The notes under the pieces are model-generated. The model did not search any database, had not been told where the DNA came from, and saw only the letters and a program-made list of their open reading frames with translations. A program made the translations under genes and the position numbers. From Kiritimatiellia bacterium (GTDB taxonomy: Bacteria; Verrucomicrobiota; Kiritimatiellia; RFP12; UBA1067), in assembly GCA_017406465.1 (NCBI GenBank), contig JAFQYM010000009.1, positions 8,221-72,220 of the forward strand: 64,000 nucleotides of DNA, written 5' to 3'. Within the stretch, counting starts at the first letter, position 1. Each line of letters starts with the position of its first letter. Shown here piece after piece: positions 17,406 through 34,240 of the stretch.

Positions 17406-19928
17406 CTATGTCAAGAACAGCGGGAACAAGTCACGTGCTTTCAGGAGCAAATCGTCCAATGCCTTGCCGTTCATATCCTTTGCTCCATGATCGACAAGCC
17501 AATCGATGAAATCGCGCCAATGCACCTTCAGGGCATCATAGGCTTCTTTGGACTCGTCTTTGGCAAGCCCCTTGGCGGCAACATAGCGATCCTTGACGAT
17601 CTGCGGCAGCTTCGCAGACATTCCGGCGATGCTTTTGTATGAATTCTCCGCCTGGATGTTCCACGTAAGCTCGATTTCGCCTTCGGCCCATGATTTATGA
17701 ACGATCTGCTTCGTGTGCTGGATGTAGTTTGTTCCGCCCTCATCGATGAACTTGCACTTGATCTCCTCGCCATTCGCCGTCGCGCGGTCGACAAGCACCT
17801 TCTGCGCCGCATCGATATTCCGTCTTGTCGCCCCGTCGTCCCAATCTCCGGGGACAAGGAGGCGCAGGTCGATGTCGAACCCACCTTTCAGCACGGCATC
17901 GTAGCCAAGCGACCCGCCGACGAAATACTCCGCTCCCGCGATGCCGCAGTCCTTCACGAGCCGTTCGCCCTCCTCCCGTGCAAGCGCCAGCAGCGCCGGC
18001 GTCTTCGGGTTGCGGAACTTCACCGCCATCCCCGCCGGATCGGCAACCGCATACTTCTTGTAGAATTCTTCAGGTGTCATAGTTATCTTATATGCTATTT
18101 GTTCTAGGAATGTCGGAGCCTCGGCAATCTGCGCCCTGTCTTTCTCCTGCGCTTCATCGTTGAAACGGTTGTTATAGTTCGCCAACTCGGGACGTATCGG
18201 ATTTGAATTGCAGTTCATCTTCACCTCGGCGATCCAACGGCGATGCGTAGCCTTTGCAAGAATCTCGCCGACAGCGCTCCCGATTGGCACGCCAAGCCCC
18301 ATTCCGCATCCATCGGCGACATCTACAAATTCCAACCCAACTGAATGGAAAAGCTCTTTGAATGAATCGACCCTCTGTTTGAATTTCTCTTTGCGGTAAA
18401 TCGACGTATATTCATTGTTGCCGACATCCCACTCCTCGCGATTCTTGAAAATTGCCCTTGCAAGCCTTTCCCTGCGCCAGGCATTGTATGCGGCGCCATT
18501 CTTAAAGCCGAAATAATACACGCTGTCGCATTCCGGCAAATCAAGGAAGTCTTCGTTGGGGCGGTTCACGCCGAATGTCTCGATATCCTGCCTGACATAT
18601 ATCCTGAAATCCGCCTTGCTCCCGTCAAGGAGGTCAAGGAGGTCTTTCATTATCTCCAATGCGGCCGTCGCATCCGTAATCGAGATCACGACGCTTGTCT
18701 GTGCGTCATCCGATACCAGGGCCTTTATTTTGTCCAAGAAGGCGGAACTGTAATATCCTTCTTTCACATCCTCGATTGACAGCTCGAGATGTGTGGTGGG
18801 CGCCTTAATCTCCGGATACTCGCGCAAGAACGCACGGCTTGGGGCCTCCGTGTTTTCTCCAATGACGCGGATTTCCGTTTTCACTTCGTCGCCGTAGTGG
18901 GCGACCCTGGCCGCTTCGACAGCCAATGCCTGCCCCATCTGCGAGAAGCCGACAATCACGACACGCACTGTTTTCTTGCAGTCATGATGCATAAACCGCA
19001 ATGCAGGATATGCCGCGCGGTCTTTTGTCGGCAACATCGCCCACAGCCGCTTGCTCCAATTGTCATAGAAGTTGAAGTAGTCAAGCAGCAACGGATAACT
19101 GTTGCTCGCCTTGCGGCTTCGCTTGAGACGACTGAATAAAAGGAAGGATGCAATCTTCACATGGGCAACAATCTGAGAATTCGGATCCGTGCATTTGCCT
19201 CCGAGCCGCTTGTTGAGCCTCGCCACGAGGTTCAACATGCGGGCATCATGCCCAGACTCCTCCGACTCGCCTACCAGATATATCTCTCGCGCCGCATCAA
19301 GGGAATAATTGGCAATGATGTCGTCCACATCATCGTAATGACCGCGGCAGACGGAAACATAGAGCTTTTCGTCCTTGCCGCAGGCCCTTATTAGCTTTCG
19401 GATTTCCGGCACGTCCTGCACGGTCACGACGGCCACTCGGCGCTCCAAGCCAAGCCGCCCCATGAATTTGTCGTACTCGCTGATTTCCTTTATCAACGTG
19501 GGGACATTGTCATCCCATCCCAGTATGATCGTATGCCCGCCCTCGCTTCGAAAGTCGTGATGTATCAGCCCGTTCCTTCTCCGTCTGCTGTAGTCCAGGC
19601 ATCGCGTCACAAGCGCCGAAAACAGCGCGCCGCTGCCGAGAAACCACGTAAAGGCAAACAGCAACGCACTCGCAAAAGCCGACACTCCGCCAGTCGCAAT
19701 CACCGTGTTTATGTCAAACAAGCTGGTGAATATCCATTTGAACACCCCCTGTTGACCATTTCTGCCAAAGGCAAACCCTAAAATGACCGCCAATATGGCA
19801 ATGCCCGCCAAGACCCACCAGAGATATTTGACAGGATTCCTCTCACCAGCCACCAAGAATCCAAGGAACCTACGGAGATTCCTTATCCTGGGCATTTCCT
19901 TAATAAAATCATTTAATTTGAAACGCAT
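17406..19928 (-). CDS. Membrane protein with a 2-TM pore-like N-terminus, two RCK (TrkA_N-like) Rossmann domains and a C-terminal Pol-beta-type nucleotidyltransferase domain
   Basis: TM1 LWWVLAGIAILAVILGFAF. Re-entrant and filter-like segment FTSLFDINTVIATGGVS. TM2 AFASALLFAFTWFLGSGALFSALV. RCK1 HTIILGWDDNVPTLIKEI. RCK2 RVVIVGFSQMGQALAVE. NTase hG[GS]x11DhDh: VGGSLGYDAVLKGGFDIDL. Confidence 0.6.
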   Translation of the reverse strand: MRFKLNDFIKEMPRIRNLRRFLGFLVAGERNPVKYLWWVLAGIAILAVILGFAFGRNGQQGVFKWIFTSLFDINTVIATGGVSAFASALLFAFTWFLGSGALFSALVTRCLDYSRRRRNGLIHHDFRSEGGHTIILGWDDNVPTLIKEISEYDKFMGRLGLERRVAVVTVQDVPEIRKLIRACGKDEKLYVSVCRGHYDDVDDIIANYSLDAAREIYLVGESEESGHDARMLNLVARLNKRLGGKCTDPNSQIVAHVKIASFLLFSRLKRSRKASNSYPLLLDYFNFYDNWSKRLWAMLPTKDRAAYPALRFMHHDCKKTVRVVIVGFSQMGQALAVEAARVAHYGDEVKTEIRVIGENTEAPSRAFLREYPEIKAPTTHLELSIEDVKEGYYSSAFLDKIKALVSDDAQTSVVISITDATAALEIMKDLLDLLDGSKADFRIYVRQDIETFGVNRPNEDFLDLPECDSVYYFGFKNGAAYNAWRRERLARAIFKNREEWDVGNNEYTSIYRKEKFKQRVDSFKELFHSVGLEFVDVADGCGMGLGVPIGSAVGEILAKATHRRWIAEVKMNCNSNPIRPELANYNNRFNDEAQEKDRAQIAEAPTFLEQIAYKITMTPEEFYKKYAVADPAGMAVKFRNPKTPALLALAREEGERLVKDCGIAGAEYFVGGSLGYDAVLKGGFDIDLRLLVPGDWDDGATRRNIDAAQKVLVDRATANGEEIKCKFIDEGGTNYIQHTKQIVHKSWAEGEIELTWNIQAENSYKSIAGMSAKLPQIVKDRYVAAKGLAKDESKEAYDALKVHWRDFIDWLVDHGAKDMNGKALDDLLLKARDLFPLFLT

Positions 19929-19958: not shown

Positions 19959-21986
19959 TTAGGTTTCTTTATATGTGAGTATCATTTGTGCAACGTACTG
20001 CGAAATGTTGCCATTTGACGCAACATGCTTTAGCGTGTAAAGAAGATTTGCCCAATCCTCGCAGAATGCATTCGCCTCCTGCCGCGTCTTGGCAAGGAGC
20101 AAAAATGGCGTCGCCGTTTTGTCATTATCACAGGCAAACAGCTTAAGGTCTTTCCACTCATCGCTATTGTTGCAGTACTTCTTGATACTATAGCTGAATG
20201 ACGTCACTTCCACATCCGAATGCCTCTTGCGCAGCCAATCAAACTGCGCGGACAGCACATTGCTTGTAAATGGATCGTCTTGCGTGAAGAAATCTTCCCC
20301 ACCCTTCAAAAACACATAGAACAAATTCAATCCTGGCGAAAGCCTGCAATCTTTGCGCATAGGGCTGGAATTGCCTGTAAATTGCGCATAATCTTGAATG
20401 AAAGCCGCAACGACGGCATTCGAGTTAAGCCCCTTCAATTCTCGTGCCCAATCGTTCCCATTTCCATCTTCACTCAATGACAGTTCCTTGTTCTCCAACT
20501 CGCGCCGCTTGTCATAGAACTTGAGAAATGCCAGTTCCTCCGCCCTCGCAAGCAGGGCAGATTCGTTCGTCCCCGGCGCGGGGCCACGCGAACTCCCCCT
20601 CTTGTCGGCAAAGATGGCATTGCGCAATGCCGAATTTTTCGCGCTCCATATCTTTATGATCCGCAAGAGCGCGATTCCAATGACAAGCGCAAAAGCCATG
20701 ACAATCGATAGTATGCTTACAAAACTAGTCTGGCCGAAAGCACTATTCAACTTGGCACTTTTGGCGGCGAGATATGGCACCAGCGTACAGCCGACAATCA
20801 CGACAAACATCGGCTCAAATCCCCCGCATACGACAAGCCAGTCTCCACCGGAGAGGCCAAATTTCTCCATGTGCTTCTTCTTCATCACTGCATCATGTAG
20901 CGAAACGCCAGCCAATTGACAAACTGGCGCGACAATGGTGCCTAACACAACGACAATCCAAACCAGCCAAAAACCGTTCGACAAGAAAAACGCCCTGAAT
21001 CCCTCGGCCTTCCCAAGCCAACCATCCATATACAAAACCCATAGATCGTCAAACTCTAGAACCTTCCCTGTCGCAGTGCCCACATGCCCAGCAAGCCAAT
21101 GAGAGCCAGACCAAAACAGATATGCCAAGGCCGCAGCCCCTGAGCACATAATCAAATTCATGACAAGAGCAGCAGTAAGCGCGGCCCGGAATTGCCTTCC
21201 TGCCATGATTTTATCATCCTCGGCCGACACAAGCAGATTGCCGTTTATCTTTGCAAAAGTGTACACGGCACAAATGAAGGCGACTAATGCAGCCCAAACG
21301 GTTATTCCGCCAAGATGCTCCCAAACCCCAACTGGACAACGGGCAGACAAATTCAATATGCCACTTGCAAACACCATGAGGAGCGAGCAAATCCAGACGA
21401 GCGCTTCCACTAACGAGAAATCCTTCGGAGATTTCTTCGGAAAAAGAATAATCAAAAGCAACCCCATATAATAGCCATAGCTGCGAAGCGCTTTTGCCGC
21501 TGTTTCGGATATCACGCTATTGTCAACGGCATCTTGCGCGTAATGCAAGATGAACTTCATCTCAAAGAATCTGGCAAAAAAATATCCAGTCGGCAAAGCA
21601 ATCAACCACCACTTATATTTCCAAATCTTGCGACACGTCACCTTTAGCATTATCCAAATCCATTTCGCATCCCCCTTCATCGCACCCCAAAGGAAAAGCA
21701 CTAACAGCCAAACACCCAGCAACCCAAGTGACACTATAGACGCTAGCAGCGTTCGCATGAAGACCGTGAATATCCGTTCGGCATCAATGATGGGATTGCT
21801 GTTCAGAACATCATACCCCAATGGGAGAAGCCCCCACAGAAGCGGCGCGACAATCGCGAGACAGAGCCATCCCAACCGGCTGAATGCCGCATGCCCCAGC
21901 ACCTTGATCAAGGCGCACAGATCAACTAAACCACCCCACACGTTGACACTTGGCGGCAGACGCAGCAAAGACATTTTCTTACTCAT
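19959..21986 (-). CDS. Polytopic membrane protein with a cytoplasmic C-terminal domain, hypothetical
   Basis: More than 10 hydrophobic helices. Start chosen at the Met whose ATG overlaps the phosphatase stop (ATGAGTAAG); the track start at 22022 is also possible. Confidence 0.55.
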   Translation of the reverse strand: MSKKMSLLRLPPSVNVWGGLVDLCALIKVLGHAAFSRLGWLCLAIVAPLLWGLLPLGYDVLNSNPIIDAERIFTVFMRTLLASIVSLGLLGVWLLVLFLWGAMKGDAKWIWIMLKVTCRKIWKYKWWLIALPTGYFFARFFEMKFILHYAQDAVDNSVISETAAKALRSYGYYMGLLLIILFPKKSPKDFSLVEALVWICSLLMVFASGILNLSARCPVGVWEHLGGITVWAALVAFICAVYTFAKINGNLLVSAEDDKIMAGRQFRAALTAALVMNLIMCSGAAALAYLFWSGSHWLAGHVGTATGKVLEFDDLWVLYMDGWLGKAEGFRAFFLSNGFWLVWIVVVLGTIVAPVCQLAGVSLHDAVMKKKHMEKFGLSGGDWLVVCGGFEPMFVVIVGCTLVPYLAAKSAKLNSAFGQTSFVSILSIVMAFALVIGIALLRIIKIWSAKNSALRNAIFADKRGSSRGPAPGTNESALLARAEELAFLKFYDKRRELENKELSLSEDGNGNDWARELKGLNSNAVVAAFIQDYAQFTGNSSPMRKDCRLSPGLNLFYVFLKGGEDFFTQDDPFTSNVLSAQFDWLRKRHSDVEVTSFSYSIKKYCNNSDEWKDLKLFACDNDKTATPFLLLAKTRQEANAFCEDWANLLYTLKHVASNGNISQYVAQMILTYKET

Positions 21987-22641
21987 AGATGCTCCTTTCC
22001 GTATAAGGTTCCGTGAGAACAAAATCGTTGTCGCAAGACATTTGCCCGCTACAGCTGTTCAACATTAGTGAAATATGGCAGTTCGGCAACTGTCCCATCA
22101 CGTCAAACCACCTGACATCCCAGTGATACCACCTTGCCAAGAAGCACTTGATCGCCGTGCCGTGGGAAACGATAATGATGTTTTCAGGGCAGTCGGCGCG
22201 ATCGAAGCGGCGAAACAACGAATCCATGAACAGCGCCATGCGATCATAGACATCCGCACACGATTCGCCGTCGGGGAAGCGGTAGAAGAAATATCCGAAC
22301 TGCTCACGGAAAGCTCGATTCGCATCGTTCTCGTCCGTCGGTGGCATATTGCCGTATTCCTGCTCGCGCAATTCTGGATCTTGATAGTCAAATACCGGCT
22401 CTCGCCCTATTCCCTCCAACATCGCATTCTTGGTCTGCTCCGCCCGCACATACGGCGAACTGAACACCCCGAACGCCCCATCGCCAATCAACCCCGCAAT
22501 ACGCCGCCCCGCCTCTCGCGCCTGCGCAACGCCCGTGTCCGTCAACGCAATCTTCCAATCCGGAATCTTCGCATAGACCTCATGATCTACGTTCGCTTCC
22601 GACTCGCCGTGCCGGAGAAGTATGATGCGCTTAGGGGTCAT
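21979..22641 (-). CDS. Histidine phosphatase (phosphoglycerate-mutase-like) family protein
   Basis: N-terminal LLRHGESEAN catalytic motif and a C-terminal His (SHG). ATGA overlap with the upstream gene. Confidence 0.8.
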   Translation of the reverse strand: MTPKRIILLRHGESEANVDHEVYAKIPDWKIALTDTGVAQAREAGRRIAGLIGDGAFGVFSSPYVRAEQTKNAMLEGIGREPVFDYQDPELREQEYGNMPPTDENDANRAFREQFGYFFYRFPDGESCADVYDRMALFMDSLFRRFDRADCPENIIIVSHGTAIKCFLARWYHWDVRWFDVMGQLPNCHISLMLNSCSGQMSCDNDFVLTEPYTERSIYE

Positions 22642-25600
22642 GAGGGGTTGTCTCCACCTGATTCAAGGCGCTCTATACAAATGTGAGCAATAGCCAAGAA
22701 ACACGCCGCTGCTTGGATATTATGATCATGCTTTAAATATATTTTAAAAGTATATAGACAACAAAGCGCCGTCGTAAGAGTATACATGTCCGGTGTCATT
22801 TGTTTGTCTTTGAGCGCCGCCCTCCGTATTCGTCTCAATATCTTATAAACCAACGTAAACCGTCTATCGTTGGCAATGTAATCAGGCTCATCTTCATTAA
22901 CAGAAAACATCGCGTCGCATATGTATTTTCTGAATATGCGCACAAGGCGTGCCGCATATCGCGCACTACCACCAACACCTTCATCATTCCATAGGTCATT
23001 ATCAAACAACAAACTGATCGTCGCAGAAAACATGACATTAAAATCATGTGCGATATAGTCGCGTCTTGTCCTTGCAAAATCAATCAACCACACATCCTTC
23101 TCAGGGTTGCCATTCTTCTCATCAAGCATTATATTGGCATAATTCATATCTCCGTGAATAATACCCTGCTGACAATTAAATCGTTCTCCTGTGGTATCCG
23201 CTTGTACCAATTTATCAATCCGACCTTTTTCATCAAGCACTAATTTTCCATACCCAGAGATGTTGACAACTCCATTCCGACCTCCTTTCAACAGATTCTC
23301 GATTAACGTAATTATGCATTGTTTACATCGATTATCAGGATCTCTATTGTCGGATGAATATTTAAATTTATTATCATCGCTCGTCCTATTCTGTTCATCT
23401 CCGTTATAAAACACAACGATACTTTTACTATCGGGATAGAGTCGTTCTTTAATTGACTTCAAGATTGCACCATCTAATTTAGGCTCCACCTCGCTATTCT
23501 TGACAATCGCATATAGCGTTTGCCCTGGCATCGGATGTCGATATTTAGCCACATGCTCGGCTACTACACCTTTTAAAACAACTGTAATCTTGGAATAATC
23601 ATTCACTCCTTGTTTATTCTGTATCTCGTATGCCTCAATTGCATGGCGGCCAACATCATCCTTGCACAAACCATGAAATTCAAAGGCCTTAATCTTTGGG
23701 GCCCTACGAACACAAGCCTCTTCCTGCGAAACAAAGCACTCTACATCATAATACTTTGCGATTGGCATTCGAGACAAATAGTTGCCGACAAAACCATTTT
23801 TCGACAGCACCTTTTCCCCTAATATATGGTTGGGGAAAGACGACATGGCTTTCTCAATCTCAAGATCAAATGAAATGCCATGTATCTTTGGCAATATATC
23901 GTCAAATATTGAATCAAATACACTCGCATACTTTTCATAGTCGCAACGCGCGAAAAACTTTATGTCATTAGAAAGCTTTTCTTTCATCGTTGACAAATTA
24001 TGCGAAGGGTCGTTCTTCCCCGCGAAGGAGTACACGATAGCCGAATTGTCTTTATCGACGACTTTGTTCTTCGTCTCGATTCTTCCACATTCATTTGCTA
24101 TATATGGCCGAATAAAACGGAAGTACCGTTCGAACTCGGTCATAGTATTAAATGCCGAATCAATCTTAACGATTACAGGACTTTGCAATGGTTTTTCATG
24201 GCCCTCAATTGTTTTCCATGCCTTGAATGTCACAGCGGAACTCATGCCGCCGCCCATTGGCTTGATATGTATTCTCTTTCCGGGCAGTTTCTCTAGTACT
24301 TTATAAGTGAGATACATGCGTTCCTGCTCATGTTCGCTACAAAAACTTGCACTCCGTCCAGTCTCAATGGAAAACATGTCTCGATCACACAATCCAAGCC
24401 GTCCCAATGAATCCCATTCCTTTCCCCATTTCTGAAACGAAAGCAATGAAATCATATGACGGGGCAACTTTTCAACATCCTCTTTCCTAATAAACCAATC
24501 TGCCCCAGCTGCAAACGCACGTGAAATATGCCCCATATCATCATATCTCGAATAGATGACAACAGGGATTTGCGGAAAGAACTGCTTAATATATTTTATC
24601 AATTGATACCCAGAAGGATCGTGGCCCGGGTGATCGGCAAGTCTTAGATCCAACAATACAAAATCATAAGATTTATGTGAATCACTTATTTGCCTGAACT
24701 GAGATATAGCCTGTCGAACAACGGTATTGTCACCAGGTATATCCGCCCGAACGGAGATTGGCTCAATAGCCATCACAGGTTTTGTCCTGGCCTCAATATC
24801 TTTCTTTGCATTCTCCGCATCATCATCAATTAACAATCCTGAGAATCTGATTACTGGCGAGAAATACGCGACTTGCGAACCGCCCGGTTCATAAATCACT
24901 TCCTCGCTGAATTTCTTACCACAGTCCTCGTCGTTCAAGTTGTTGCCTTTGACGAATAGACTTGATAATGACGCCATTTCACTCTCGAAAACGACTTCCC
25001 TAAGTCGCTTGAACAACGACTTACTTTCATAGCGTCTTCTCAACTGTTCCTTGTACTTTTTCCAAACACCACCCGGATCATCCTTCAGATTCTTAACATC
25101 GATTGTCCCGTCCGTTCCATGAACATCTTCATCCAGCATGCAAAACCGCCTAAATGCACCAGCCATCCAGTCTTTTATGTCTTCAGCTGACAATCCTTCT
25201 TTCAATTTCTCATCCGACCTCCACGCTTTCATGCGCAATAGCATATCCCGCACAAGGTCGACAGTCAATGCGCCATCCGTTTTATTCGCTTTTCCCTTCT
25301 CAAACCGCAGGACAAATTCATTAGGAATCGAGAAACCAGCCCCATCTATGACACGGACTCGCTTTCCATTGCCCATCGCATATTCAAAATCAACGAAGAG
25401 CGGATAAAATTTCTCAACGCCAGAAAGCTTATCTATTTCAAGAGGGCCGTACCCAAGGCCACGACAGGCCTCTTTAATAACTTCAGCAAGCTTACCAACA
25501 GTTGATGCCGCCGTAACTGGAATAATTAACAATGGCACTATAGTAGCCACCTGTCCATCATTCGTAAGGCTTGCAAAATCTTGTGCATCATATGAGTACT

Positions 25601-26225
25601 GATACACTCGGTTGCTATGTTTTTTACTTTCCGCAGCCAATTTATCAGACAACTCCTTAACTTCAGCTTCACTACTTGGTAATTTCTTCAATCTCCATTT
25701 CGCCCCCGTCTCAACATCCGTCACATTGAAGATTTCCTTACGCATTGAACTAATTGCTTGAACATCCCATTTGACGTAATCATTATTAGCTTGTTTCCAC
25801 CTAGCGAAAACTTCTTGAAAAGCATTGTCCATATCAGAGACGCCGCCAGCATCACCCCCATCTCCCCAGTGGCAAAAAACATGGACAACATTGTCATGCG
25901 TGGGCTCGCCAACGACAACTTCCGTGATATTCTTTTCGATATAATCTTTGACAAAGGTTGTCAGACAATTATCAGCAACTCTTCCAGTGCGAATTACATC
26001 TTTTAGCTCATCAACGTCAGTACTCCTCTTAAGAATGATACAAACACTATCAATATCATCACTCCATTCCACCTTAATAGAAGCAGTGTCCCCTATGCTG
26101 TCTATGAGATCATCAGCACCATCATCACTACTATCAGAATCAAAACCCGATGACGCATCATATGGCATGCCATCATAAGCGTCAAACTCATCTTGATCTT
26201 TGGCAATAAAAACGGCGATTGTCAT
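22638..26225 (-). CDS. 1195-aa multidomain protein: acidic N-terminus, response-regulator receiver (REC) domain, RIO/Kdo-like atypical protein-kinase domain
   Basis: REC: LLIDDD acidic pocket, phospho-acceptor DFVLLDLRL, PVVIYS, FIRKE. Kinase: Gly-rich PMGGGMSSAVTFKAW, VIVKID Lys, catalytic IIHGDMNYANIML, WLIDFARTR DFG-like. Low GC. Confidence 0.65.
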   Translation of the reverse strand: MTIAVFIAKDQDEFDAYDGMPYDASSGFDSDSSDDGADDLIDSIGDTASIKVEWSDDIDSVCIILKRSTDVDELKDVIRTGRVADNCLTTFVKDYIEKNITEVVVGEPTHDNVVHVFCHWGDGGDAGGVSDMDNAFQEVFARWKQANNDYVKWDVQAISSMRKEIFNVTDVETGAKWRLKKLPSSEAEVKELSDKLAAESKKHSNRVYQYSYDAQDFASLTNDGQVATIVPLLIIPVTAASTVGKLAEVIKEACRGLGYGPLEIDKLSGVEKFYPLFVDFEYAMGNGKRVRVIDGAGFSIPNEFVLRFEKGKANKTDGALTVDLVRDMLLRMKAWRSDEKLKEGLSAEDIKDWMAGAFRRFCMLDEDVHGTDGTIDVKNLKDDPGGVWKKYKEQLRRRYESKSLFKRLREVVFESEMASLSSLFVKGNNLNDEDCGKKFSEEVIYEPGGSQVAYFSPVIRFSGLLIDDDAENAKKDIEARTKPVMAIEPISVRADIPGDNTVVRQAISQFRQISDSHKSYDFVLLDLRLADHPGHDPSGYQLIKYIKQFFPQIPVVIYSRYDDMGHISRAFAAGADWFIRKEDVEKLPRHMISLLSFQKWGKEWDSLGRLGLCDRDMFSIETGRSASFCSEHEQERMYLTYKVLEKLPGKRIHIKPMGGGMSSAVTFKAWKTIEGHEKPLQSPVIVKIDSAFNTMTEFERYFRFIRPYIANECGRIETKNKVVDKDNSAIVYSFAGKNDPSHNLSTMKEKLSNDIKFFARCDYEKYASVFDSIFDDILPKIHGISFDLEIEKAMSSFPNHILGEKVLSKNGFVGNYLSRMPIAKYYDVECFVSQEEACVRRAPKIKAFEFHGLCKDDVGRHAIEAYEIQNKQGVNDYSKITVVLKGVVAEHVAKYRHPMPGQTLYAIVKNSEVEPKLDGAILKSIKERLYPDSKSIVVFYNGDEQNRTSDDNKFKYSSDNRDPDNRCKQCIITLIENLLKGGRNGVVNISGYGKLVLDEKGRIDKLVQADTTGERFNCQQGIIHGDMNYANIMLDEKNGNPEKDVWLIDFARTRRDYIAHDFNVMFSATISLLFDNDLWNDEGVGGSARYAARLVRIFRKYICDAMFSVNEDEPDYIANDRRFTLVYKILRRIRRAALKDKQMTPDMYTLTTALCCLYTFKIYLKHDHNIQAAACFLAIAHICIERLESGGDNPS

Positions 26226-29200
26226 TTGTGTTCTCCTATTGGTAAAATGTTCATAATCGTATCGACCAGCACCATTTTCTCTGGGTATTTCTTAAAGAGC
26301 GCAGTCTCCACTACGGAAAATGGCAGTATCCGCGCTGAATCTGGAATGTTCGCAGGAGTGCCACGACCTGTCGTAATCACAACATACGGGACGAACTCTT
26401 TAAGCCTCTTGATAAAAGACTCAACCTTGCCACAATCCGTCCCCACGTGCGGCAACCACTTATCTATCAATCCTTGGTGGATAATCAAGATATCAAAACG
26501 CCAGTCGCGCAATGGGAGCTCCTCACAATTGGTCGCCGAAGACCCATTGACTATCGCATATCTCAGGAAGGCGTCGAATCTCCCTTTGTCTAATGTTATG
26601 AGCGAATCCAACCCAATCTTCTCTTCGCCAAACTTGGTCTCGTCAACGCACCAAATACCCATGCGACAAAATGTCTTGATCTCATCGGACCGATTTCGCA
26701 AAAACTTTGAAACCCGTTCGTCAACTATTAAAATACGCGAGAGCCCCGTCTCATACATCTTAGCAATAAGATGGTAATTGGTTAGTCGTTGATAGACGGA
26801 TTCATTCTGTCCAAGCATCATCATATCATTAAGATATGATTGTGTTCCGCTCAAAGGCTCCAAATACAACATTTTGTCTTGATTAAAATCATCGGATGTT
26901 GCATGCCGCATAAACGCAATGGATTTCCCTTCATTCCATTCCGCGTCTTTTTCATTATATACCAAAGATATTCCCAGTTCTTGCACAATCTTATTATCTA
27001 CACCATCTACGCCCTCCCCGCCGCTATTCCCTTTTATTTCATCATTCAAATCTTCTCCAAAACAACAAGGAAGCGTTATGATTCTCTCTTCATACTTCCG
27101 CAACATGACATCAGATTCTCTGTATGCCGAGCATAGATCCTTAACAAACATAGGCATCCCATTTGATTTATTCACTGCATTGCCTTGATACAAAGGATTG
27201 CCCTGCCTTATCTTAAAATCTGATGCATTGTTTCCAAGTGCTTCTGAAACTTTCGCGTGGTATTTCAATGCAATTGCGTAAACTGCTTCCAATCCCTTTT
27301 TATTGTCAACTGCCGCCATTCTTCTCAATTTGTATTTTTCAGCAAAGGCCGCGAACCCTTGTAAAAGACCATCCGGCGTGTCTCTTAAAATGCCCTGCAA
27401 CACAGAAAACCATCCATCCAATACCTTAAAAATCAATTCCCGTTCTGAATAATCAGCATCAGCTTTGACATCATTAATTTTTTTCCGTAATATCTCATTT
27501 TCACCAACAAAACCAAACACATTCCCATTTATATCAAGCGTTTTCGGCATAGCAACTATCAACGCCAAATACCAATAAACCTCATCTGCAATTATATTTG
27601 GGCGAAGCTCTCCATCTTTCAGTAAATTACCCACAATAGAACGGAACATTTCCTTAAAAACGAAATTCCACACATCCAGATTGCTCACCAACCCCTGCCC
27701 AGGATTCCCCGACGAACCTACTTCCGTCGTCAACACTCTCAACGCAGGCAAGCCAGAATCAAATCTCCTTCTCGTCTCACTCCAATAAGTTATCCACGCT
27801 TTAATCGCCTTGACTTTCAATTTCTTTGCGACAGCCTCTGCCGAAATCGTCCCATTCTGCAAGTCTTTCAACACATCATCATAAAATCCAGACGCATTCG
27901 GAACCATATCAACTTTGCCACTATTATCATTTGCCAAGACGCGGAATGGCAAATGAGGGTCTGCCTGTGAAGGGAACTTCGGCAAAACAACGAACGAATA
28001 GTTCCAATCCTCTTCGCTGTCATTCTTTGGCTTAACAAATCGACCGTCTTTTGGTGGTGGCACAACGAACACGCCTAATGTCCGCAGCTCTTTAATTATG
28101 TCCACATTGACACCAGTCGTATCACAGACAAAGGCAATATCTCTTGGACGAGGAATCGTGAAATGATACCCAAGATGATCTTCATTAGCACGTATTGGTG
28201 TTATTATAGGAATCCCTTTCGACATCCCTCCTATATCGGAGATAGAGCGCTTATTAAGATAACCAGCCGATATCTTCATCTCAGCAAGCCCCCAGTTCTC
28301 TCGCCGCAAAGACCCTGTCTCATCTATAAATGGCTTCTCTATCCTAATCTGCTGACAATGGTGCAATGGCATCCAAAGGCGATTGCCTAAACGTCCATCG
28401 CCAGGCACATCACCAATAAGTCGTCCCGCAATCCGCTTCAATTCATTTTCATTATATTTTAACAGACATGCATATTGCTCTTGATAAAAGACTGGCAACT
28501 GAGCCACAGAGCATTTCCCCGATAAAAACTCTGCAATGCATTCTTGCTCCGACGGTAGTAAAGAAGTCTGCAAGGCTTCTTTATACGTCTCATACCATCT
28601 TTTAAGCGACTCATCAGTTGTATGTGAAGTCCAAAGTCGTTTGCCTATGCCGCCATCGCTTGACGCCTCGCCCACAAGCCAACGCTCAATCTTCTCAATG
28701 GCATCCTTGTCCCGATTCTTTAGCAATAAATACTGTTTCTTGTAACATTCAGGCAAGGAGTCCACCGCCCCCTTCCCAGAGAGAAACTTTGAAATCTGCA
28801 TCCTTTCATCTCGCGTCAATCTCTGCAGGACATCTCTACACTCCTCGAACCACTTCAAAAGATCTTTATCAACCATCCAATAGTCATCGAACGTCGCAAA
28901 CACATTTGATATACCATCATAAACATCAACCAAAACCGCCCTTCCGTCATCGTCTGCGGCGAAATCGACATAAACATCCAGATTTGTCTTTTCTCCTTTA
29001 AACTTTGACCAACCATGCTTTGCTGCGTTTCGAATTACATTCTCAAGAATAGTAAAGAATGCATGAGAGCCGACAATGCCACCCGGCAATGCAACTGCTA
29101 AATCGCTTGAAAATTTATCATTGTCTCTCACACTCTTTTTAGCATTCGCGACATTGGATGCATTTTCAACAATAGGATCATCGCTATAGGTAATAAATTC

Positions 29201-31258
29201 AACAGACTTGCGTCCATCATTGAATCGCCTTGAGACATGCAGCTTTATAGTGTTTTCTTGGCTCCACCTAGCAGGACCTGAGACATTAGGGTCTTGGAAC
29301 TTAAATGCGTGAAGGCCTTCGCTACTTGCTATATATTCCAAGAGATGTCGTTGAGAAAGAAAGCGACGTGTCAAATCATTTACTAGTTTTGCGCTGCCAG
29401 CCCATGTAGGGAAATCTGTTGTTGCCGTCGCAGTATAATCCATTCTGTGCTGTATGTACTGATACAAAACTCTGTCATCCGGCATCGTCCCTATATTATG
29501 AGACAACGCCGCCAATACATGACTACCAATATTATGGGAACCATTGCGAGACATTATTGAGCCAATGGCAGACTTTGTATTTGCTATCTTAAGCTTATTC
29601 GTCGCTATTGCATTTCGAACTCCATCAAATACCCGATTAACTGAATTCGACACTAGTTGCAATGCTATTAAATCCAATTTCCTTTTACAACTAAAGACAA
29701 TGCAGCCCTTATCCAACGCATTAGAAGTCTCTGGAACAAGATACACCCATCTATCGTCCCCCTTTAAATAATCTTTTGTCCAATTAGTCAACGCCTCTCC
29801 TCGCTTACGCATTTTGGAAATCGCTTCTCTACTACTATTTTTAAACTTAATAGCAGCATCTTCCTGCGACCATGCCGCTACTACTGGAAATCTTTTCTCG
29901 ATTGATTGGCAATATGGTACCGCGAACTTCCTGAGATTGGAGTCGTCTGAGCACTTAAGAAATAACCTATACGAATCATTGTCACATAAATCATATTCTC
30001 GCAAATTCACTTGAATAGGCTTATCCTCTAACGCACTTAGTAGCCCCTTCTGAAATATATCGACTTCAGCAGACGTGTCAGAAAAAAGAGCCTTCTCTCC
30101 CGAAAATATCATTACATGATTAAGATCAAAGTACTGACCTAAAAGTGAATGCCTCAAAACTTCCCAAACGAAAGAACGAAGAGAACAATCTGAAATATCA
30201 ACAACTTGGATCTTCGCGCATTTATCAACAAGTGCTTCAGTATCTTTCATGAAATTAACTTGCGCAATTGGCGTTAAACGGCAAACTAGATTATCAACTC
30301 CCGCCCTCCAATTCTCATCTATGGCCGGATAGCCAAATTCATTAACGATTTTACCTACTAGACACGGTGCTAGCGACCCACCTTTTCGCAAAACTATTGA
30401 ATCCTTTTCTCCCAACAAATAAACGCCTTTGTGCAACGGCTCTTCACAAAAGACACCCGCAGAAAAACAATCAGCAATCCTATCTCTCGAAAACTTAACA
30501 AATACTTGAAATAAATTCTTCGAGTCAATATCATTGACAAGAGACAAATAGCGAACACTTTTAAATTCAGGTGGGAAATGAACCTCATTATTACCCATGT
30601 CTGTACAAAGAATTGGCAATGCAATATCAGTAAACACAACTGCCGAATTGCTTACCGCGTATTTTAATATATATTCGTAATTGTCACCGTATCCTGTTAC
30701 ATATACAAAATCTCCTTTGCTAAGTATACTTTTTATAGATGTGTTTACCGAGGTGTCCTGATATGCGCAGGGCTTATATTTATACGCAATATGCGGTATC
30801 AATTCCCTGGACAAGGTTTCAAAATGCAACTTAAAAGCATTCTGCATATCTACCTGAGACGAACTGTAAAATATCCTCACAGTAATTTCATTCTCATCAT
30901 TATTACCACTCGTATACATCCTATGTATTTCGCCAATCATTCTTCGTGCAACTAAATACGTTTGATCCGTTGCCGATATCCACCAGCGATAATACTTTAT
31001 CCCAGCGGAAAGAATGATGTCCTCGTTTGTCTGAACAGTCCCCGTGCAGAAAAGAGGGATTCTCTGCGCTTTTGCAATCTTCAAGAGTGCTTCACTCGGC
31101 GTGCCAATTGAAAGAATGCCAGACCAAGATTCACCTAAGATATCACTGCGCAGTGAAGCATCAACGAAACTCTCCCCCTTGTATTTGCCAATTATTACTT
31201 TAGATGAATTATCCAACTCATCATCAGCCATTCCCCTGTAAACCAAAATCTTATTCAT
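26222..31258 (-). CDS. 1678-aa giant protein: PBP1-like N-terminal region, doubled SHNIG His motif, GHKL/HATPase_c-like N-box, internal duplicated roughly 60-aa module, receiver-like C-terminus
   Basis: N-terminus IGTPSEALLKIAKAQRIPLF…GDFVYVTGYGDNYEYILKYA is periplasmic-binding-protein-type-I-like. RNGSHNIGSHVLAALSHNIG at residues 572-590. ENVIRNAAKHG…VDVYDGISNV at residues 738-786. Repeats FLSGKGAVDSLPECYKKQY…GIGKRLW and FLSGKCSVAQLPVFYQEQY…RLGNRLW. C-terminus ILIVDER…FDILIIHQG. ATGA-coupled to the next gene. Confidence 0.6.
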   Translation of the reverse strand: MNKILVYRGMADDELDNSSKVIIGKYKGESFVDASLRSDILGESWSGILSIGTPSEALLKIAKAQRIPLFCTGTVQTNEDIILSAGIKYYRWWISATDQTYLVARRMIGEIHRMYTSGNNDENEITVRIFYSSSQVDMQNAFKLHFETLSRELIPHIAYKYKPCAYQDTSVNTSIKSILSKGDFVYVTGYGDNYEYILKYAVSNSAVVFTDIALPILCTDMGNNEVHFPPEFKSVRYLSLVNDIDSKNLFQVFVKFSRDRIADCFSAGVFCEEPLHKGVYLLGEKDSIVLRKGGSLAPCLVGKIVNEFGYPAIDENWRAGVDNLVCRLTPIAQVNFMKDTEALVDKCAKIQVVDISDCSLRSFVWEVLRHSLLGQYFDLNHVMIFSGEKALFSDTSAEVDIFQKGLLSALEDKPIQVNLREYDLCDNDSYRLFLKCSDDSNLRKFAVPYCQSIEKRFPVVAAWSQEDAAIKFKNSSREAISKMRKRGEALTNWTKDYLKGDDRWVYLVPETSNALDKGCIVFSCKRKLDLIALQLVSNSVNRVFDGVRNAIATNKLKIANTKSAIGSIMSRNGSHNIGSHVLAALSHNIGTMPDDRVLYQYIQHRMDYTATATTDFPTWAGSAKLVNDLTRRFLSQRHLLEYIASSEGLHAFKFQDPNVSGPARWSQENTIKLHVSRRFNDGRKSVEFITYSDDPIVENASNVANAKKSVRDNDKFSSDLAVALPGGIVGSHAFFTILENVIRNAAKHGWSKFKGEKTNLDVYVDFAADDDGRAVLVDVYDGISNVFATFDDYWMVDKDLLKWFEECRDVLQRLTRDERMQISKFLSGKGAVDSLPECYKKQYLLLKNRDKDAIEKIERWLVGEASSDGGIGKRLWTSHTTDESLKRWYETYKEALQTSLLPSEQECIAEFLSGKCSVAQLPVFYQEQYACLLKYNENELKRIAGRLIGDVPGDGRLGNRLWMPLHHCQQIRIEKPFIDETGSLRRENWGLAEMKISAGYLNKRSISDIGGMSKGIPIITPIRANEDHLGYHFTIPRPRDIAFVCDTTGVNVDIIKELRTLGVFVVPPPKDGRFVKPKNDSEEDWNYSFVVLPKFPSQADPHLPFRVLANDNSGKVDMVPNASGFYDDVLKDLQNGTISAEAVAKKLKVKAIKAWITYWSETRRRFDSGLPALRVLTTEVGSSGNPGQGLVSNLDVWNFVFKEMFRSIVGNLLKDGELRPNIIADEVYWYLALIVAMPKTLDINGNVFGFVGENEILRKKINDVKADADYSERELIFKVLDGWFSVLQGILRDTPDGLLQGFAAFAEKYKLRRMAAVDNKKGLEAVYAIALKYHAKVSEALGNNASDFKIRQGNPLYQGNAVNKSNGMPMFVKDLCSAYRESDVMLRKYEERIITLPCCFGEDLNDEIKGNSGGEGVDGVDNKIVQELGISLVYNEKDAEWNEGKSIAFMRHATSDDFNQDKMLYLEPLSGTQSYLNDMMMLGQNESVYQRLTNYHLIAKMYETGLSRILIVDERVSKFLRNRSDEIKTFCRMGIWCVDETKFGEEKIGLDSLITLDKGRFDAFLRYAIVNGSSATNCEELPLRDWRFDILIIHQGLIDKWLPHVGTDCGKVESFIKRLKEFVPYVVITTGRGTPANIPDSARILPFSVVETALFKKYPEKMVLVDTIMNILPIGEHK

Positions 31259-32430: not shown

Positions 32431-32452
32431 TTTTTGTTTTCCTTTCTTGTGT

Positions 32453-34227: not shown

Positions 34228-34240
34228 CGCTTCGGTCTCC

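What the first reader, a model, noticed from the sequence alone, without database searches (positions are those of the whole stretch)
22638..26225. Receiver domain fused upstream of a RIO/Kdo-like atypical protein kinase
A bona fide-looking REC domain occupies residues about 458-585 (nt about 24470-24855). It has the acidic pocket LLIDDD, phospho-Asp LLDLRL, Ser in PVVIYS and Lys in FIRKE.

It is followed by a kinase-fold region, residues about 640-1080. This has the glycine loop PMGGGMSSAVTFKAW, a VIVKID lysine, the catalytic loop IIHGDMNYANIML and WLIDFAR (DFG-like), with long insertions.

The N-terminal 450 aa are highly acidic (DSDSSDDGADD…). A REC-regulated eukaryotic-like or atypical kinase next to a His-ATPase-like giant protein and a PGAM phosphatase suggests a His-Asp to Ser/Thr phospho-relay hybrid.
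Basis: partly seen in the sequence, partly recalled or inferred. Interest (0 to 1): 0.65.

Follow-up and report, generated by a model that had tools for sequence, protein, structure and literature searches.

The report
Receiver-gated TCAD9 kinase with hidden histidine kinase
This gene encodes a response-regulator receiver domain fused to an active-looking atypical (TCAD9/APH-type) kinase. It sits directly behind a very divergent, unannotated histidine-kinase-like giant protein in a fast-diverging operon of gut Kiritimatiellia, so it looks like a two-component switch whose output is a second kinase rather than a transcription factor.

Summary
Window 22638-26225 (minus strand) encodes a 1195-aa protein with a receiver domain (Pfam above threshold; D467/D468/D526/S559/K581) and a protein-kinase-like domain. 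That domain is TCAD9 (PF19974, E about 1e-22), not RIO or Kdo. Its K687, E697, H1024, D1026 and N1031 are invariant in 128 relatives.

The N-terminal 450 aa are not simply acidic: they form two conserved folded domains.

The upstream 1678-aa protein has no Pfam hit. Its AlphaFold model matches DHp+CA histidine kinases, and it carries a near-invariant H-box-like SHNIGSH and an N-box.

Relatives of this kinase-like protein are common in metagenomes (at least 344). In loci of at least 12 kb they sit next to a Peripla_BP_6 binding protein (30/34), Liv-type ABC genes, and REC (25/34) or sigma-54 (15/34) regulators.

Long REC-TCAD9 forms keep the acceptor Asp and always lie directly downstream of the giant. 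Short forms carry Gly there and are uncoupled from it.

The cassette is low in GC and only 25-50% identical between genomes whose flanking genes are 80-95% identical.

Best reading: an atypical His-to-Asp relay that gates a TCAD9 kinase. The substrate and biological role are unknown. I rate it a new variant of a known kind.

The parts
22638..26225 (-). REC-TCAD9 kinase gene (1195 aa), the finding itself
   Evidence: ORF. Pfam TCAD9 plus Response_reg. 128-member family.
25551..26225 (-). N-dom (residues 1-225). An alpha/beta domain with invariant FCHWGxGG (117-124) and AISSxR (157-162). It contains a non-conserved acidic loop at about 20-60.
   Evidence: Alignments. pLDDT is 70-87 outside the loop. 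It is a separate ORF between the giant and the kinase in L006, L007 and L012. No Pfam or PDB match.
24861..25550 (-). MID domain (residues 226-455) with invariant DxxVHG (365-370)
   Evidence: Present in the long forms (85 of the 128 aligned sequences have residues at the MID marker columns) and absent from all short forms. Detected in L012 and in the distant L017 protein. No Pfam match.
24426..24860 (-). Receiver (REC) domain, residues 456-600. Key residues are D467/D468/D469, acceptor D526, S559 and K581. It is followed by the invariant linker KLPRH...W..EW (586-604).
   Evidence: Pfam. Model. Foldseek. Conservation.
22641..24425 (-). TCAD9-type protein-kinase-like domain, residues 601-1195. 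It has a Gly loop at 656-670, K687, E697/E699, H1024-G-D1026, N1031 and D1049. An inserted module of about 180-220 aa spans about 825-1005, and the domain ends in a helical tail.
   Evidence: Pfam. Alignments. Conservation. The model is poor here, with pLDDT below 50 in the N-lobe and catalytic loop.
26222..31258 (-). Giant 1678-aa cytoplasmic protein. Its stop codon overlaps the kinase start codon (ATGA).
   Evidence: No Pfam, NCBIfam or PADLOC hit. No credible membrane helix: one 19-residue window just over the threshold at 720-738, inside the confidently modelled core.
29627..31258 (-). Giant, variable N-terminal region (residues 1-544). It is unrelated between loci. In this window it shows weak similarity to the neighbouring binding protein.
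   Evidence: (E=1e-4).
28079..29626 (-). Giant, histidine-kinase-like core (residues 545-1060). It has a helical hairpin carrying MSRNGSHNIGSH (H575, H580), an N-box ILENVIRNAAKH (737-748), a variable insert of about 230 aa, and a G-box-like FIDxxG...NWGLAEMK (977-995).
   Evidence: Model pLDDT is 85-95. The top 39 Foldseek matches are DHp+CA histidine kinases. HATPase_c gives weak hits in 13/51 homologues. Motifs are near-invariant in 80 metagenome homologues.
26228..26938 (-). Giant, conserved C-terminal alpha/beta domain (residues 1441-1677) with DER (1513-1515), IIHQG (1592-1596) and TTGRGTP (1629-1635). Function unknown.
   Evidence: Present in 33/34 long metagenome loci. Encoded as a separate gene in L015. 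No similarity to REC by hhalign.
31279..32430 (-). Peripla_BP_6 solute-binding protein with an N-terminal hydrophobic signal or anchor. The mechanical ORF runs on to 32715 and absorbs an 88-aa upstream gene.
   Evidence: Pfam E=1.5e-27. Only 23-33% identical to its counterparts in related loci. Hydrophobic segment.
34241..37494 (-). Liv-type ABC transporter genes: LivH 36610-37494, LivM 35744-36613, LivG 34951-35763, LivF 34241-34954
   Evidence: 66-95% identical to genes called BPD_transp_2 or ABC_tran in related loci (80-95% for most comparisons). 35-54% identical to those next to distant giant homologues.
21979..22641 (-). His_Phos_1 (PGAM/SixA superfamily) phosphatase with RHG and SHG motifs. 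Its start overlaps the kinase stop (ATGA). It is an accessory component.
   Evidence: Pfam E=1.8e-29. NCBIfam. Present in L001, L007, L009, L012 and L013. Absent from L002 and L004.
19959..22022 (-). 687-aa polytopic membrane protein (about 8-9 helices) with a soluble C-terminal part
   Evidence: 28-39% identical counterparts in L001 and L007.
17406..19928 (-). 840-aa protein: 2-3 N-terminal membrane helices, Rossmann-like regions, and a C-terminal Pol-beta-type nucleotidyltransferase-like module (residues 617-839, motif GGS...DID). The module is a separate 212-224-aa gene in related loci.
   Evidence: Sequence reading.. No Pfam hit.
14922..17381 (-). 819-aa soluble protein of unknown function, last gene of the co-directional block. 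Whether it belongs to the system is uncertain.
   Evidence: 76-77% identical in L001, L008 and L011, which is flank-like conservation. No Pfam hit.

Best explanation
The 1195-aa protein is a response regulator whose output domain is an active TCAD9-type protein-kinase-like enzyme. Its cognate sensor is the 1678-aa protein encoded immediately upstream.

**The sensor.** It is a soluble, highly divergent histidine kinase made of four parts: a variable N-terminal input region, a DHp-like hairpin with H575, a CA-like ATP-binding domain, and a conserved C-terminal domain. This kinase-like family is normally wired to a Liv-type ABC importer, a Peripla_BP_6 binding protein, and REC or REC-sigma54 regulators.

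**Proposed sequence of events.**
1. A solute bound by the binding protein, or imported by the ABC system, changes the state of the giant.
2. The giant autophosphorylates on H575.
3. The phosphoryl group passes to D526 of the receiver.
4. The phosphorylated receiver acts through the invariant KLPRH...W..EW linker and the MID domain to switch on the TCAD9 kinase.
5. The kinase phosphorylates an unknown target, which could be a protein or a small molecule.
6. The overlapping His_Phos_1 phosphatase, where present, resets the system.

**Shown here.** Domain identities, conservation of catalytic and acceptor residues, the histidine-kinase-like predicted fold and motifs of the giant, translational coupling, and conserved gene linkage across distant lineages.

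**Inferred.** Every phosphoryl transfer, the activation logic, the ligand, the substrate and the role of the phosphatase.
For: **Receiver.** It passes the Pfam cut-off and has a full DD-D-S-K quintet and a CheY-like fold.

**Kinase.** It hits TCAD9 at E about 1e-22. K687, E697, H1024, D1026 and N1031 are 128/128 and D1049 is 127/128.

**Giant.**
- The model has pLDDT 85-95 over the core, with a two-helix hairpin followed by an alpha/beta domain.
- The top 39 Foldseek matches are all DHp+CA histidine kinases; the best is 5c93_B, E=6e-3, probability 0.99.
- SHNIGSH parallels the canonical SHELRTP H-box (own knowledge). H575 is 79/79 in the aligned metagenome homologues.
- N-box residues E739, R743 and N744 are at least 76/77.
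- HATPase_c gives weak hits in 13/51 homologues.

**Context of giant homologues.** In 34 metagenome loci of at least 12 kb:

| Neighbour | Loci |
|---|---|
| Binding protein | 30 |
| LivH / LivM / LivG | 24 / 26 / 28 |
| REC | 25 |
| Sigma54 regulator | 15 |

L015, L016 and L017 contain an orphan REC-sigma54 regulator and no canonical histidine kinase.

**Coupling of the two genes.**
- There are ATGA overlaps between giant and kinase and between kinase and phosphatase.
- In 12 related loci the long (MID-carrying) REC-TCAD9 gene lies directly downstream of the giant on the same strand, as it does in the window. At most the small N-dom ORF intervenes. All long forms carry the acceptor Asp.
- Gly-type short forms lie 4.8-13 kb away, or have no giant in view.
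- A REC-TCAD9-NUDIX protein only 26% identical has the same arrangement: BPD_transp_2 x2, REC-sigma54, binding protein, giant homologue, 250-aa ORF, then the kinase.
- The DDD[ST]K quintet is kept in most (about 45 of 57) of the more distant representatives with a receiver hit.
Against: - No biochemical evidence exists.
- The giant has no Pfam HisKA or HATPase_c hit above threshold, and profile searches against PDB sequences find nothing.
- The Foldseek E-values are weak (6e-3 and worse) and TM-scores are low (0.29-0.37).
- The residue after the H-box His is Asn rather than the usual Glu/Asp. The G1-box Asp (D979) is kept in only 42 of about 72 homologues.
- 41 of 128 family members have Gly at the acceptor position, so the kinase can evidently work without receiver phosphorylation.
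- The kinase part of the model is low in confidence, so the fold rests on HMM matches and motifs.
- The cassette is low in GC and hypervariable. TCAD9 is associated with conflict systems elsewhere. Both are unusual for ordinary nutrient signalling.
Confidence: 0.55

Rival explanations
1. The wiring is the same, but the biological role is immunity or conflict. The cassette would be a defensive two-component system in the manner of Detocs. The giant senses an invader-related cue and phosphorylates the receiver. The unleashed TCAD9 kinase then acts as a growth-arresting effector. The His_Phos_1 phosphatase serves as a safety or reset, and the membrane proteins and nucleotidyltransferase act as co-effectors.
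For: - The cassette GC is 0.38-0.49 against 0.57-0.63 in the flanks.
- In L005 the flanking Liv genes are 91-93% identical, but the binding protein is 26%, the giant 34-51% and the kinase 31.5%.
- The N-terminal regions of the giants are unrelated between loci.
- Foreign genes are inserted within the operon: a YhcG-type PD-(D/E)XK gene here and in L002, an ATPase_2/DUF234 gene in L001, and a radical SAM gene in L012.
- TCAD9 occurs elsewhere as an effector-type domain with vWA-MoxR-VMAP, with CARF, and fused to SMODS-associated NUDIX.
- L016 and L017 lie among KAP NTPase, PIN, DUF3800, HipA, integrase and transposase genes.
- Detocs shows that His-Asp relays can drive immune effectors.
Against: - No PADLOC model hits any of the six proteins at E<=0.1.
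- The system is tied to a periplasmic solute-binding protein, an ABC importer and sigma54 transcription activators in most loci. That is typical of solute sensing and unknown for phage defence.
- It always occupies the same chromosomal site in Kiritimatiellia, between Liv genes and an FtsH-like gene, rather than a changing defence island.
- There is no relative of the kinase in 2.9 million viral contigs, and only one weak relative of the giant. This shows only that the system is not phage-borne.
Confidence: 0.25
2. There is no His-to-Asp transfer. The giant would be a GHKL-type ATPase or scaffold with another job. The receiver would be a structural or dimerisation module, a pseudo-receiver controlled by binding to the N-dom/MID domains or to the giant, or it might be phosphorylated by acetyl phosphate.
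For: - 41/128 family members have Gly at the acceptor position yet keep every kinase catalytic residue and the rest of the receiver.
- The giant lacks any above-threshold HisKA or HATPase_c match, has a degenerate G1 box and an Asn after the His.
- The Foldseek support is weak in absolute terms.
Against: - The Gly forms are exactly the ones that are not adjacent to the giant. All 86 long forms keep Asp, and all 13 observed (12 related loci and the window) sit directly downstream of it.
- H575 and H580 are invariant in about 130 homologues.
- Giant homologues co-occur with REC proteins in 25/34 loci, often with no other kinase nearby.
Confidence: 0.15
3. The kinase is a small-molecule kinase rather than a Ser/Thr protein kinase. 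It would phosphorylate the solute brought in by the Liv-type transporter, or a derived metabolite. The nucleotidyltransferase and phosphatase would act on the same compound in a salvage or envelope-decoration pathway. The receiver would merely gate flux. This rivals the reader's 'Ser/Thr' output, not the relay itself.
For: - Apart from TCAD9, the nearest Pfam families are APH, EcKL and Kdo, which are small-molecule kinases. The Pkinase score is only 11.9 bits.
- Kaur et al. suggested low-molecular-weight substrates for the APH-like kinases of ternary systems.
- An importer, kinase, nucleotidyltransferase-like module, phosphatase and polytopic membrane proteins are all present in one operon.
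- Hypervariable, low-GC loci are typical of surface-decoration pathways (own knowledge).
Against: - The nucleotidyltransferase-like module is of the Pol-beta type (GGS...DID), not the sugar- or choline-phosphate nucleotidylyltransferase type used in known activation pathways (own knowledge).
- It has no Pfam support.
- The phosphatase and nucleotidyltransferase are not universal across loci.
- Large regulatory domains and an inserted module of about 200 aa are unusual for a metabolic kinase.
Confidence: 0.2

Closest known systems
TCAD9 (Pfam PF19974, 'ternary complex associated domain 9'). This is an APH-like kinase domain. The Pfam family name comes from the vWA-MoxR-VMAP 'ternary complex' systems of Kaur et al. 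2020 (PMC7159879), a paper whose text mentions APH-like kinases but never uses the name TCAD9. The domain is also seen with CARF near CRISPR arrays (PMC10910872).
   Same: The kinase region scores 78-81 bits against a cut-off of 40. It has the same HGD..N / DF catalytic signature. Like other TCAD9 proteins, the kinase sits behind a signal-receiving domain.
   Different: There are no vWA, MoxR or VMAP genes in the operon. The input here is a receiver domain plus the MID and N-dom domains. The protein carries an inserted module of about 200 aa. It belongs to a tight clade: only 217 relatives at E<=1e-3 among 1.84 billion representatives.
Classical two-component systems with enzymatic response regulators (CheB, PleD/WspR, RssB and RpfG types), plus the rare REC-Ser/Thr-kinase architectures listed in Galperin's response-regulator censuses (own knowledge).
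   Same: A receiver with a complete phospho-acceptor pocket is fused N-terminal to an enzyme. The gene lies adjacent to, and is translationally coupled with, a kinase-like sensor gene.
   Different: The output is a TCAD9/APH-type kinase rather than a Pkinase, GGDEF or methylesterase domain. The sensor is so divergent that no HisKA or HATPase_c model recognises it. Two further conserved domains precede the receiver.
Detocs (defensive two-component system: DtcA kinase, DtcB receiver-only buffer, DtcC receiver-effector; Rousset et al., bioRxiv 10.1101/2023.01.24.525353).
   Same: A soluble sensor kinase with a variable N-terminal region lies next to a receiver-effector protein whose effector is not a DNA-binding domain. 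The effector is modular.
   Different: There is no sequence relationship by PADLOC. There is no stand-alone buffer receiver, and a phosphatase gene sits in the operon instead. The effector is a kinase rather than an ATP nucleosidase. The system is linked to an ABC importer and a binding protein. A defence role is untested.
Transporter-coupled sensing by histidine kinases (PstSCAB-PhoU-PhoR, BceAB-BceS) and the cytoplasmic Peripla_BP-type sensor AmiC (own knowledge).
   Same: The kinase-like sensor has no membrane or periplasmic domain of its own. It is persistently encoded with an ABC transporter and its binding protein.
   Different: The transporter family differs (Liv/HAAT type). The kinase family is unannotated. 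Coupling is inferred from gene linkage only.

Membership tests
Response regulator receiver (PF00072, CheY-like) | Profile match above the curated cut-off | tested here: met
   35.1 bits against 30.2, E=1.6e-8, residues 513-586.
Response regulator receiver (PF00072, CheY-like) | (beta-alpha)5 fold | tested here: met
   Five strands and five helices at 461-596 in the model. All top 50 Foldseek/PDB hits are receivers, with target TM-scores of about 0.65-0.73 against isolated receiver-domain chains.
Response regulator receiver (PF00072, CheY-like) | Acidic pair after beta1, acceptor Asp after beta3, Ser/Thr after beta4, Lys after beta5 | tested here: met
   D467/D468, D526, S559 and K581 are present. 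They are conserved 125, 126, 86, 127 and 126 of 128. The acceptor is Gly in the 41 short forms.
Response regulator receiver (PF00072, CheY-like) | Phosphorylation on the acceptor Asp | not testable with these tools
   Needs biochemistry.
TCAD9 (PF19974) | Profile match above the curated cut-off | tested here: met
   78.4-81.3 bits against 40. Two stretches match, the best being residues 1019-1161 to profile positions 296-424 of 429. All homologues listed carry PF19974.
TCAD9 (PF19974) | Association with a vWA-MoxR-VMAP ternary system (the origin of the name) | tested here: not met
   No vWA, MoxR or VMAP family was found in any operon protein or in the syntenic loci.
Protein-kinase-like superfamily, catalytically active | Gly loop, beta3 Lys, helix-C Glu, HxD...N catalytic loop, DFG-type Asp | tested here: met
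   G660/S662, K687, E697, H1024/D1026/N1031 and D1049 are invariant or 127/128.
Protein-kinase-like superfamily, catalytically active | Bilobal kinase fold | tested here: inconclusive
   Kdo scores 18.9-20.2 against 21.3. RIO1 scores 13.4 against 22. Both match only about 35 residues of the catalytic loop.
Histidine kinase (DHp + CA), applied to the upstream giant | Helical hairpin with a conserved His in helix 1, followed by a Bergerat ATP-binding domain | tested here: met
   In the model, helices span 2-41 and 48-70, with H575 at model residue 31, followed by an alpha/beta domain. The top 39 Foldseek hits are DHp+CA kinases, though E-values are 6e-3 and weaker. This rests on a predicted structure only.
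Histidine kinase (DHp + CA), applied to the upstream giant | N, G1 and G2 boxes | tested here: inconclusive
   The N-box (E739, N740, R743, N744, K747, H748) is near-invariant. The G2-like WG..E.K is conserved. The G1 Asp is only 42 of about 72.
Histidine kinase (DHp + CA), applied to the upstream giant | HisKA or HATPase_c profile match above the cut-off | tested here: not met
   The window protein gives no hit. HATPase_c matches 13/51 homologues, with a best E of only 0.018.
Histidine kinase (DHp + CA), applied to the upstream giant | Genomic pairing with receiver-domain proteins | tested here: met
   REC ORFs occur in 25/34 long loci and sigma54 regulators in 15/34. Long REC-TCAD9 forms (all Asp-type) are directly downstream in 12 related loci and in the window.
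Detocs | DtcA/DtcB/DtcC homologues, including a stand-alone buffer receiver | tested here: not met
   No PADLOC hit at E<=0.1. I did not check whether that release holds Detocs models. There is no stand-alone receiver gene in the operon.
Histidine phosphatase superfamily, branch 1 (downstream gene) | Profile match plus the RHG and second-His motifs | tested here: met
   103.3 bits against 21.7. RHG at residues 10-12 and SHG in the C-terminal half.

The most novel reading that the evidence does not exclude
The giant represents a previously unrecognised, widespread family of histidine kinases that no current domain model detects and that is dedicated to ABC-importer-coupled sensing.

In gut Kiritimatiellia this relay has been rewired from sigma54 transcription control to a receiver-gated TCAD9 kinase. 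The rewired version sits inside a cassette kept hypervariable by diversifying selection. That would make it a new kind of His-Asp-to-kinase cascade working in immunity or strain discrimination rather than in nutrient regulation.
Probability: 0.2. Interest if true: 0.85.

Novelty: new variant of a known kind. Interest (0 to 1): 0.6.

Why it matters
- Response regulators almost always end in DNA-binding, cyclic-di-GMP or chemotaxis domains. A receiver that gates an atypical kinase links the two main bacterial phosphorylation systems in a single polypeptide.
- The partner sensor escapes every HisKA and HATPase_c model, yet it has hundreds of metagenomic relatives in a fixed gene context. Current censuses of two-component systems therefore probably miss a whole kinase family.
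- TCAD9 kinases have no known substrate. This operon offers a defined on-switch (D526) and a candidate off-switch (the phosphatase) with which to find one.
- The sharp contrast between near-identical flanks and a cassette only 25-50% identical marks a locus under unusual selection in a poorly studied gut phylum.

Tried and rejected
- **PADLOC models.** No hit for six operon proteins.
- **Profile searches against PDB sequences.** I tried the kinase (A4), giant core (A5), giant C-terminal domain (A6) and N-dom (A8). Nothing credible came back.
- **Idea that N-dom and the giant's C-terminal domain are related, or are degenerate receivers with His in place of Asp.** hhalign gave probabilities below 1%. 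The receiver-like topology of the giant's C-terminal domain in the model remains only an impression.
- **hhalign of the giant family against a REC-PAS protein from L014.** Nothing.
- **Sigma54 promoter consensus in the window.** 28 matches against 28 expected, none usefully placed.
- **Promoter and terminator scan of the operon.** Uninformative in AT-rich DNA.
- **Second TCAD9 copy in the window.** None.
- **Viral contigs.** No kinase relative and one weak giant relative.
- **'Highly acidic N-terminus' as a feature.** Rejected. It is a 40-residue non-conserved loop within a folded domain.
- **Pfam at E<=5** on the giant N-terminus, on N-dom+MID and on the nucleotidyltransferase-like module. 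Nothing.

Full report
**1. What is there**

The finding corresponds to one ORF on the minus strand, 22638..26225, 1195 aa.

Pfam gives two matches above their curated cut-offs:
- TCAD9 (PF19974): 78.4 bits against 40, E=8e-22.
- Response_reg (PF00072): 35.1 bits against 30.2, E=1.6e-8.

APH, EcKL, Kdo, RIO1 and Pkinase match only the catalytic loop and stay below their cut-offs. The kinase is therefore a TCAD9-type protein-kinase-like domain, not a RIO or Kdo kinase.

An AlphaFold model built from 8 sequences has mean pLDDT 63.6.
- It shows a complete (beta-alpha)5 receiver at 461-596.
- It shows confident structure for residues 1-445.
- It has low confidence in the kinase N-lobe and catalytic loop.

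A Foldseek search of this model against the PDB returns only receiver domains in its top 50.

The 'highly acidic N-terminal 450 aa' is an overstatement. Only residues about 20-60 are Asp-rich, and that loop is not conserved. The region consists of two conserved domains:
- N-dom, residues 1-225, with FCHWGxGG and AISSxR.
- MID, residues 226-455, with DxxVHG.

**2. The family**

A full-length search found only 7 relatives, at 33-51% identity. A profile of the kinase domain found 137, all carrying TCAD9 and most also Response_reg. An exhaustive HMM search of 1.84 billion representatives found only 217 proteins at E<=1e-3.

Conservation in 128 aligned members:
- Kinase residues K687, E697, H1024, D1026 and N1031 are invariant. 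D1049 is 127/128.
- Receiver residues D467, D468, S559 and K581 are 125-127/128.

The acceptor Asp splits cleanly:
- All 86 long forms (at least 975 aa, with MID) have Asp.
- All 41 short forms (557-691 aa, receiver plus kinase only) have Gly.

The 557-583-aa short forms also lack the module of about 200 aa inserted at residues 825-1005.

More distant relatives show these architectures:
- An N-terminal region, REC and TCAD9, often with a C-terminal SMODS-associated NUDIX domain.
- CARF-TCAD9.
- Cache-HAMP-PP2C-TCAD9.

The receiver quintet DDD[S/T]K is kept in most (about 45 of 57) of the distant representatives that have a receiver hit. TCAD9 therefore recurs as the output of different signal-receiving domains.

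**3. The neighbourhood**

The source organism is most likely a gut Kiritimatiellia bacterium, because all close genomic relatives are such MAGs.

The gene lies in a tight co-directional block on the minus strand:
- LivH, LivM, LivG and LivF.
- An inserted YhcG-type nuclease gene.
- A Peripla_BP_6 binding protein.
- The 1678-aa giant.
- The REC-TCAD9 kinase.
- A His_Phos_1 phosphatase.
- A 687-aa polytopic membrane protein.
- An 840-aa protein made of a membrane part, Rossmann-like regions and a nucleotidyltransferase-like module.
- An 819-aa protein.
- A convergent FtsH-like AAA protease gene.

The giant/kinase and kinase/phosphatase junctions are ATGA overlaps.

The same locus, between the Liv genes and the FtsH-like gene, recurs in every related contig examined. 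The flanks are 66-95% identical, mostly 80-95%. The binding protein (23-33%), the giant (31-51%, over its C-terminal 1100 aa only), the kinase (31-51%) and the membrane proteins (about 28%) are far more divergent.

In L005 the Liv proteins are 91-93% identical but the kinase is 31.5% identical. The cassette is also low in GC, 0.38-0.49 against about 0.6.

**4. The giant is a hidden histidine-kinase-like protein**

It has no Pfam, NCBIfam or PADLOC hit and no credible membrane helix. Its N-terminal 300-840 aa are unrelated between loci.

Its core (residues 545-1060) and its C-terminal domain (1441-1677) are conserved. The core has about 50 homologues in other phyla, including archaea, and again none has a domain annotation for it.

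An AlphaFold model of residues 545-1677 built from 51 sequences has pTM 0.70, with pLDDT 85-95 over the first 620 residues. It shows two long antiparallel helices followed by an alpha/beta domain. The top 39 Foldseek/PDB matches are all DHp+CA histidine kinases such as WalK, HK853, CpxA, ZraS, RetS and DivL. The scores are weak; the best is E=6e-3 at probability 0.99.

Motifs:
- Helix 1 carries MSRNGSHNIGSH, which lines up with the canonical SHELRTP H-box (own knowledge).
- H575 and H580 are essentially invariant in 80 metagenomic homologues.
- The N-box residues are also near-invariant.
- The G1 Asp is only partly conserved.

HATPase_c matches 13 of 51 homologues weakly.

**5. The conserved module**

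A metagenome scan with the giant core found at least 344 relatives. Neighbours in the 34 loci of at least 12 kb:

| Neighbour | Loci of 34 |
|---|---|
| Giant C-terminal domain | 33 |
| Peripla_BP_6-type protein | 30 |
| LivH / LivM / LivG types | 24 / 26 / 28 |
| Receiver ORFs | 25 |
| Sigma54-activator regulator | 15 |
| TCAD9 kinase | 4 |

In L015, L016 and L017 there is an orphan REC-sigma54 regulator and no canonical histidine kinase nearby.

The general system is therefore a binding protein, an ABC importer and this kinase-like sensor, with receiver-domain regulators as partners. The REC-TCAD9 kinase is a lineage-specific alternative output.

Three observations tie it to the giant:
- The ATGA overlap between the two genes.
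- In 12 related loci, as in the window, the long (MID-carrying, Asp-type) REC-TCAD9 gene lies directly downstream of the giant, with at most the N-dom ORF between them. Gly-type short forms are 4.8-13 kb away or have no giant in view.
- A REC-TCAD9-NUDIX protein only 26% identical sits in the same arrangement, downstream of a giant homologue and next to BPD_transp_2 genes, a binding protein and a sigma54 regulator.

**6. Mechanism**

I propose an atypical His-to-Asp relay:
1. A solute-dependent change occurs in the giant.
2. The giant autophosphorylates on H575.
3. The phosphoryl group transfers to D526.
4. The TCAD9 kinase is activated through the invariant linker (residues 586-604).
5. An unknown target is phosphorylated.
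6. The His_Phos_1 enzyme resets the system where it is present.

The phosphatase belongs to the superfamily that includes the phosphohistidine phosphatase SixA.

Domain identities, residue conservation and gene linkage are shown. All chemistry is inferred. My confidence is about 0.55.

The biological role is open:
- The link to a transporter and to sigma54 regulators points to solute sensing.
- The hypervariability, the low GC, the foreign insertions and the company TCAD9 keeps elsewhere point to conflict or immunity, in the manner of Detocs.

Whether the kinase targets proteins or small molecules is unknown. Its nearest families are small-molecule kinases.

**7. Comparison and novelty**

The REC+TCAD9 architecture exists in automatic annotations. 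I found no description of it among the five papers in the library that mention TCAD9.

- It meets the membership tests for receiver and TCAD9 domains.
- It fails those for RIO/Kdo and for Detocs.
- The giant meets the fold and context tests for a histidine kinase but fails the profile test.

I rate the finding a new variant of a known kind: a two-component system with a cryptic sensor-kinase family and a kinase output. It has a real chance of being part of something more unusual.

Noticed in passing
window 32845-34374 (-): A YhcG-type PD-(D/E)XK nuclease gene (DUF1016_N + YhcG_C + DUF4357) is inserted between LivF and the binding-protein gene. Related loci carry other inserts in the same stretch between the Liv genes and the binding-protein gene: a 46%-identical YhcG gene in L002, an ATPase_2/DUF234 gene in L001, and a radical SAM gene in L012. 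It looks like an insertion hot spot inside the operon.
   Followed up: partly
window 30617-31120 (-), giant residues 47-214: The variable N-terminal region of this giant aligns with the neighbouring Peripla_BP_6 protein (23% identity over 179 aa, pairwise E=1e-4). This hints at a cytoplasmic binding-protein-like input domain. Giants in other loci have unrelated N-termini, and some distant homologues carry SAM-methyltransferase or NACHT domains there.
   Followed up: partly
L005 22935-23525; L008 3-1838; L009 9839-11554; L011 9950-11992; L013 485-2200; L020 14230-15816: Short REC-TCAD9 paralogues have Gly in place of the acceptor Asp (LLGLRF) but fully conserved kinase residues. They usually lie near the 819-aa and FtsH-like genes rather than next to the giant. 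L005 has both a long Asp form and a short Gly form. The window has only the long form.
   Followed up: partly
window 17406-18080 (-), residues 617-839 of the 840-aa protein: A module with a Pol-beta-type nucleotidyltransferase signature (GGSLGYDAVLKGGFDIDL) has no Pfam hit. It is fused here to a membrane/Rossmann-like protein but is a separate 212-224-aa gene in L001, L002 and L004. It is 82% identical to the L001 copy although the rest of the protein is only 28% identical.
   Followed up: partly
window 11379-14348 (+): A 989-aa FtsH-like protein with two AAA modules and an M41 peptidase domain has at most one marginal hydrophobic window (101-119, score 1.61 against the 1.6 threshold). It is convergent with the operon and conserved at this position in all related loci. 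It has a sub-threshold match to the anti-phage ATPase IteA model (E=9e-21, 74.5 bits against 510).
   Followed up: no
window 31279-32715 (-): The mechanical ORF for the binding protein runs on upstream and absorbs an 88-aa gene that is separate in L001, L002 and L003 (74% identical to the L001 copy; faint Sel1 match there). The stop codon between the two genes seems to be missing in this window.
   Followed up: no
window 48000-55700 (-): A second low-GC stretch (0.47-0.49 at 48-52 kb) holds three ORFs without significant Pfam domains (one has a sub-threshold CarboxypepD_reg match). Next to it is a 1472-aa protein with bacterial TSP3 repeats (51235-55653).
   Followed up: no
L016 8001-15348; L017 10001-14119: Distant giant homologues are followed by different large proteins: a 1264-aa adenosine-deaminase-domain protein in L016 (Candidatus Kentrum) and a REC-TCAD9-Sa_NUDIX protein in L017. 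Both sit among toxin-antitoxin, KAP NTPase, integrase and transposase genes.
   Followed up: partly
P0252, P0260 (representative proteins): TCAD9 kinases are also fused to Cache-HAMP-PP2C phosphatase (P0252) and to a CARF domain (Cas_NE0113, P0260). This shows the domain is reused as the output of several unrelated sensing modules.
   Followed up: no
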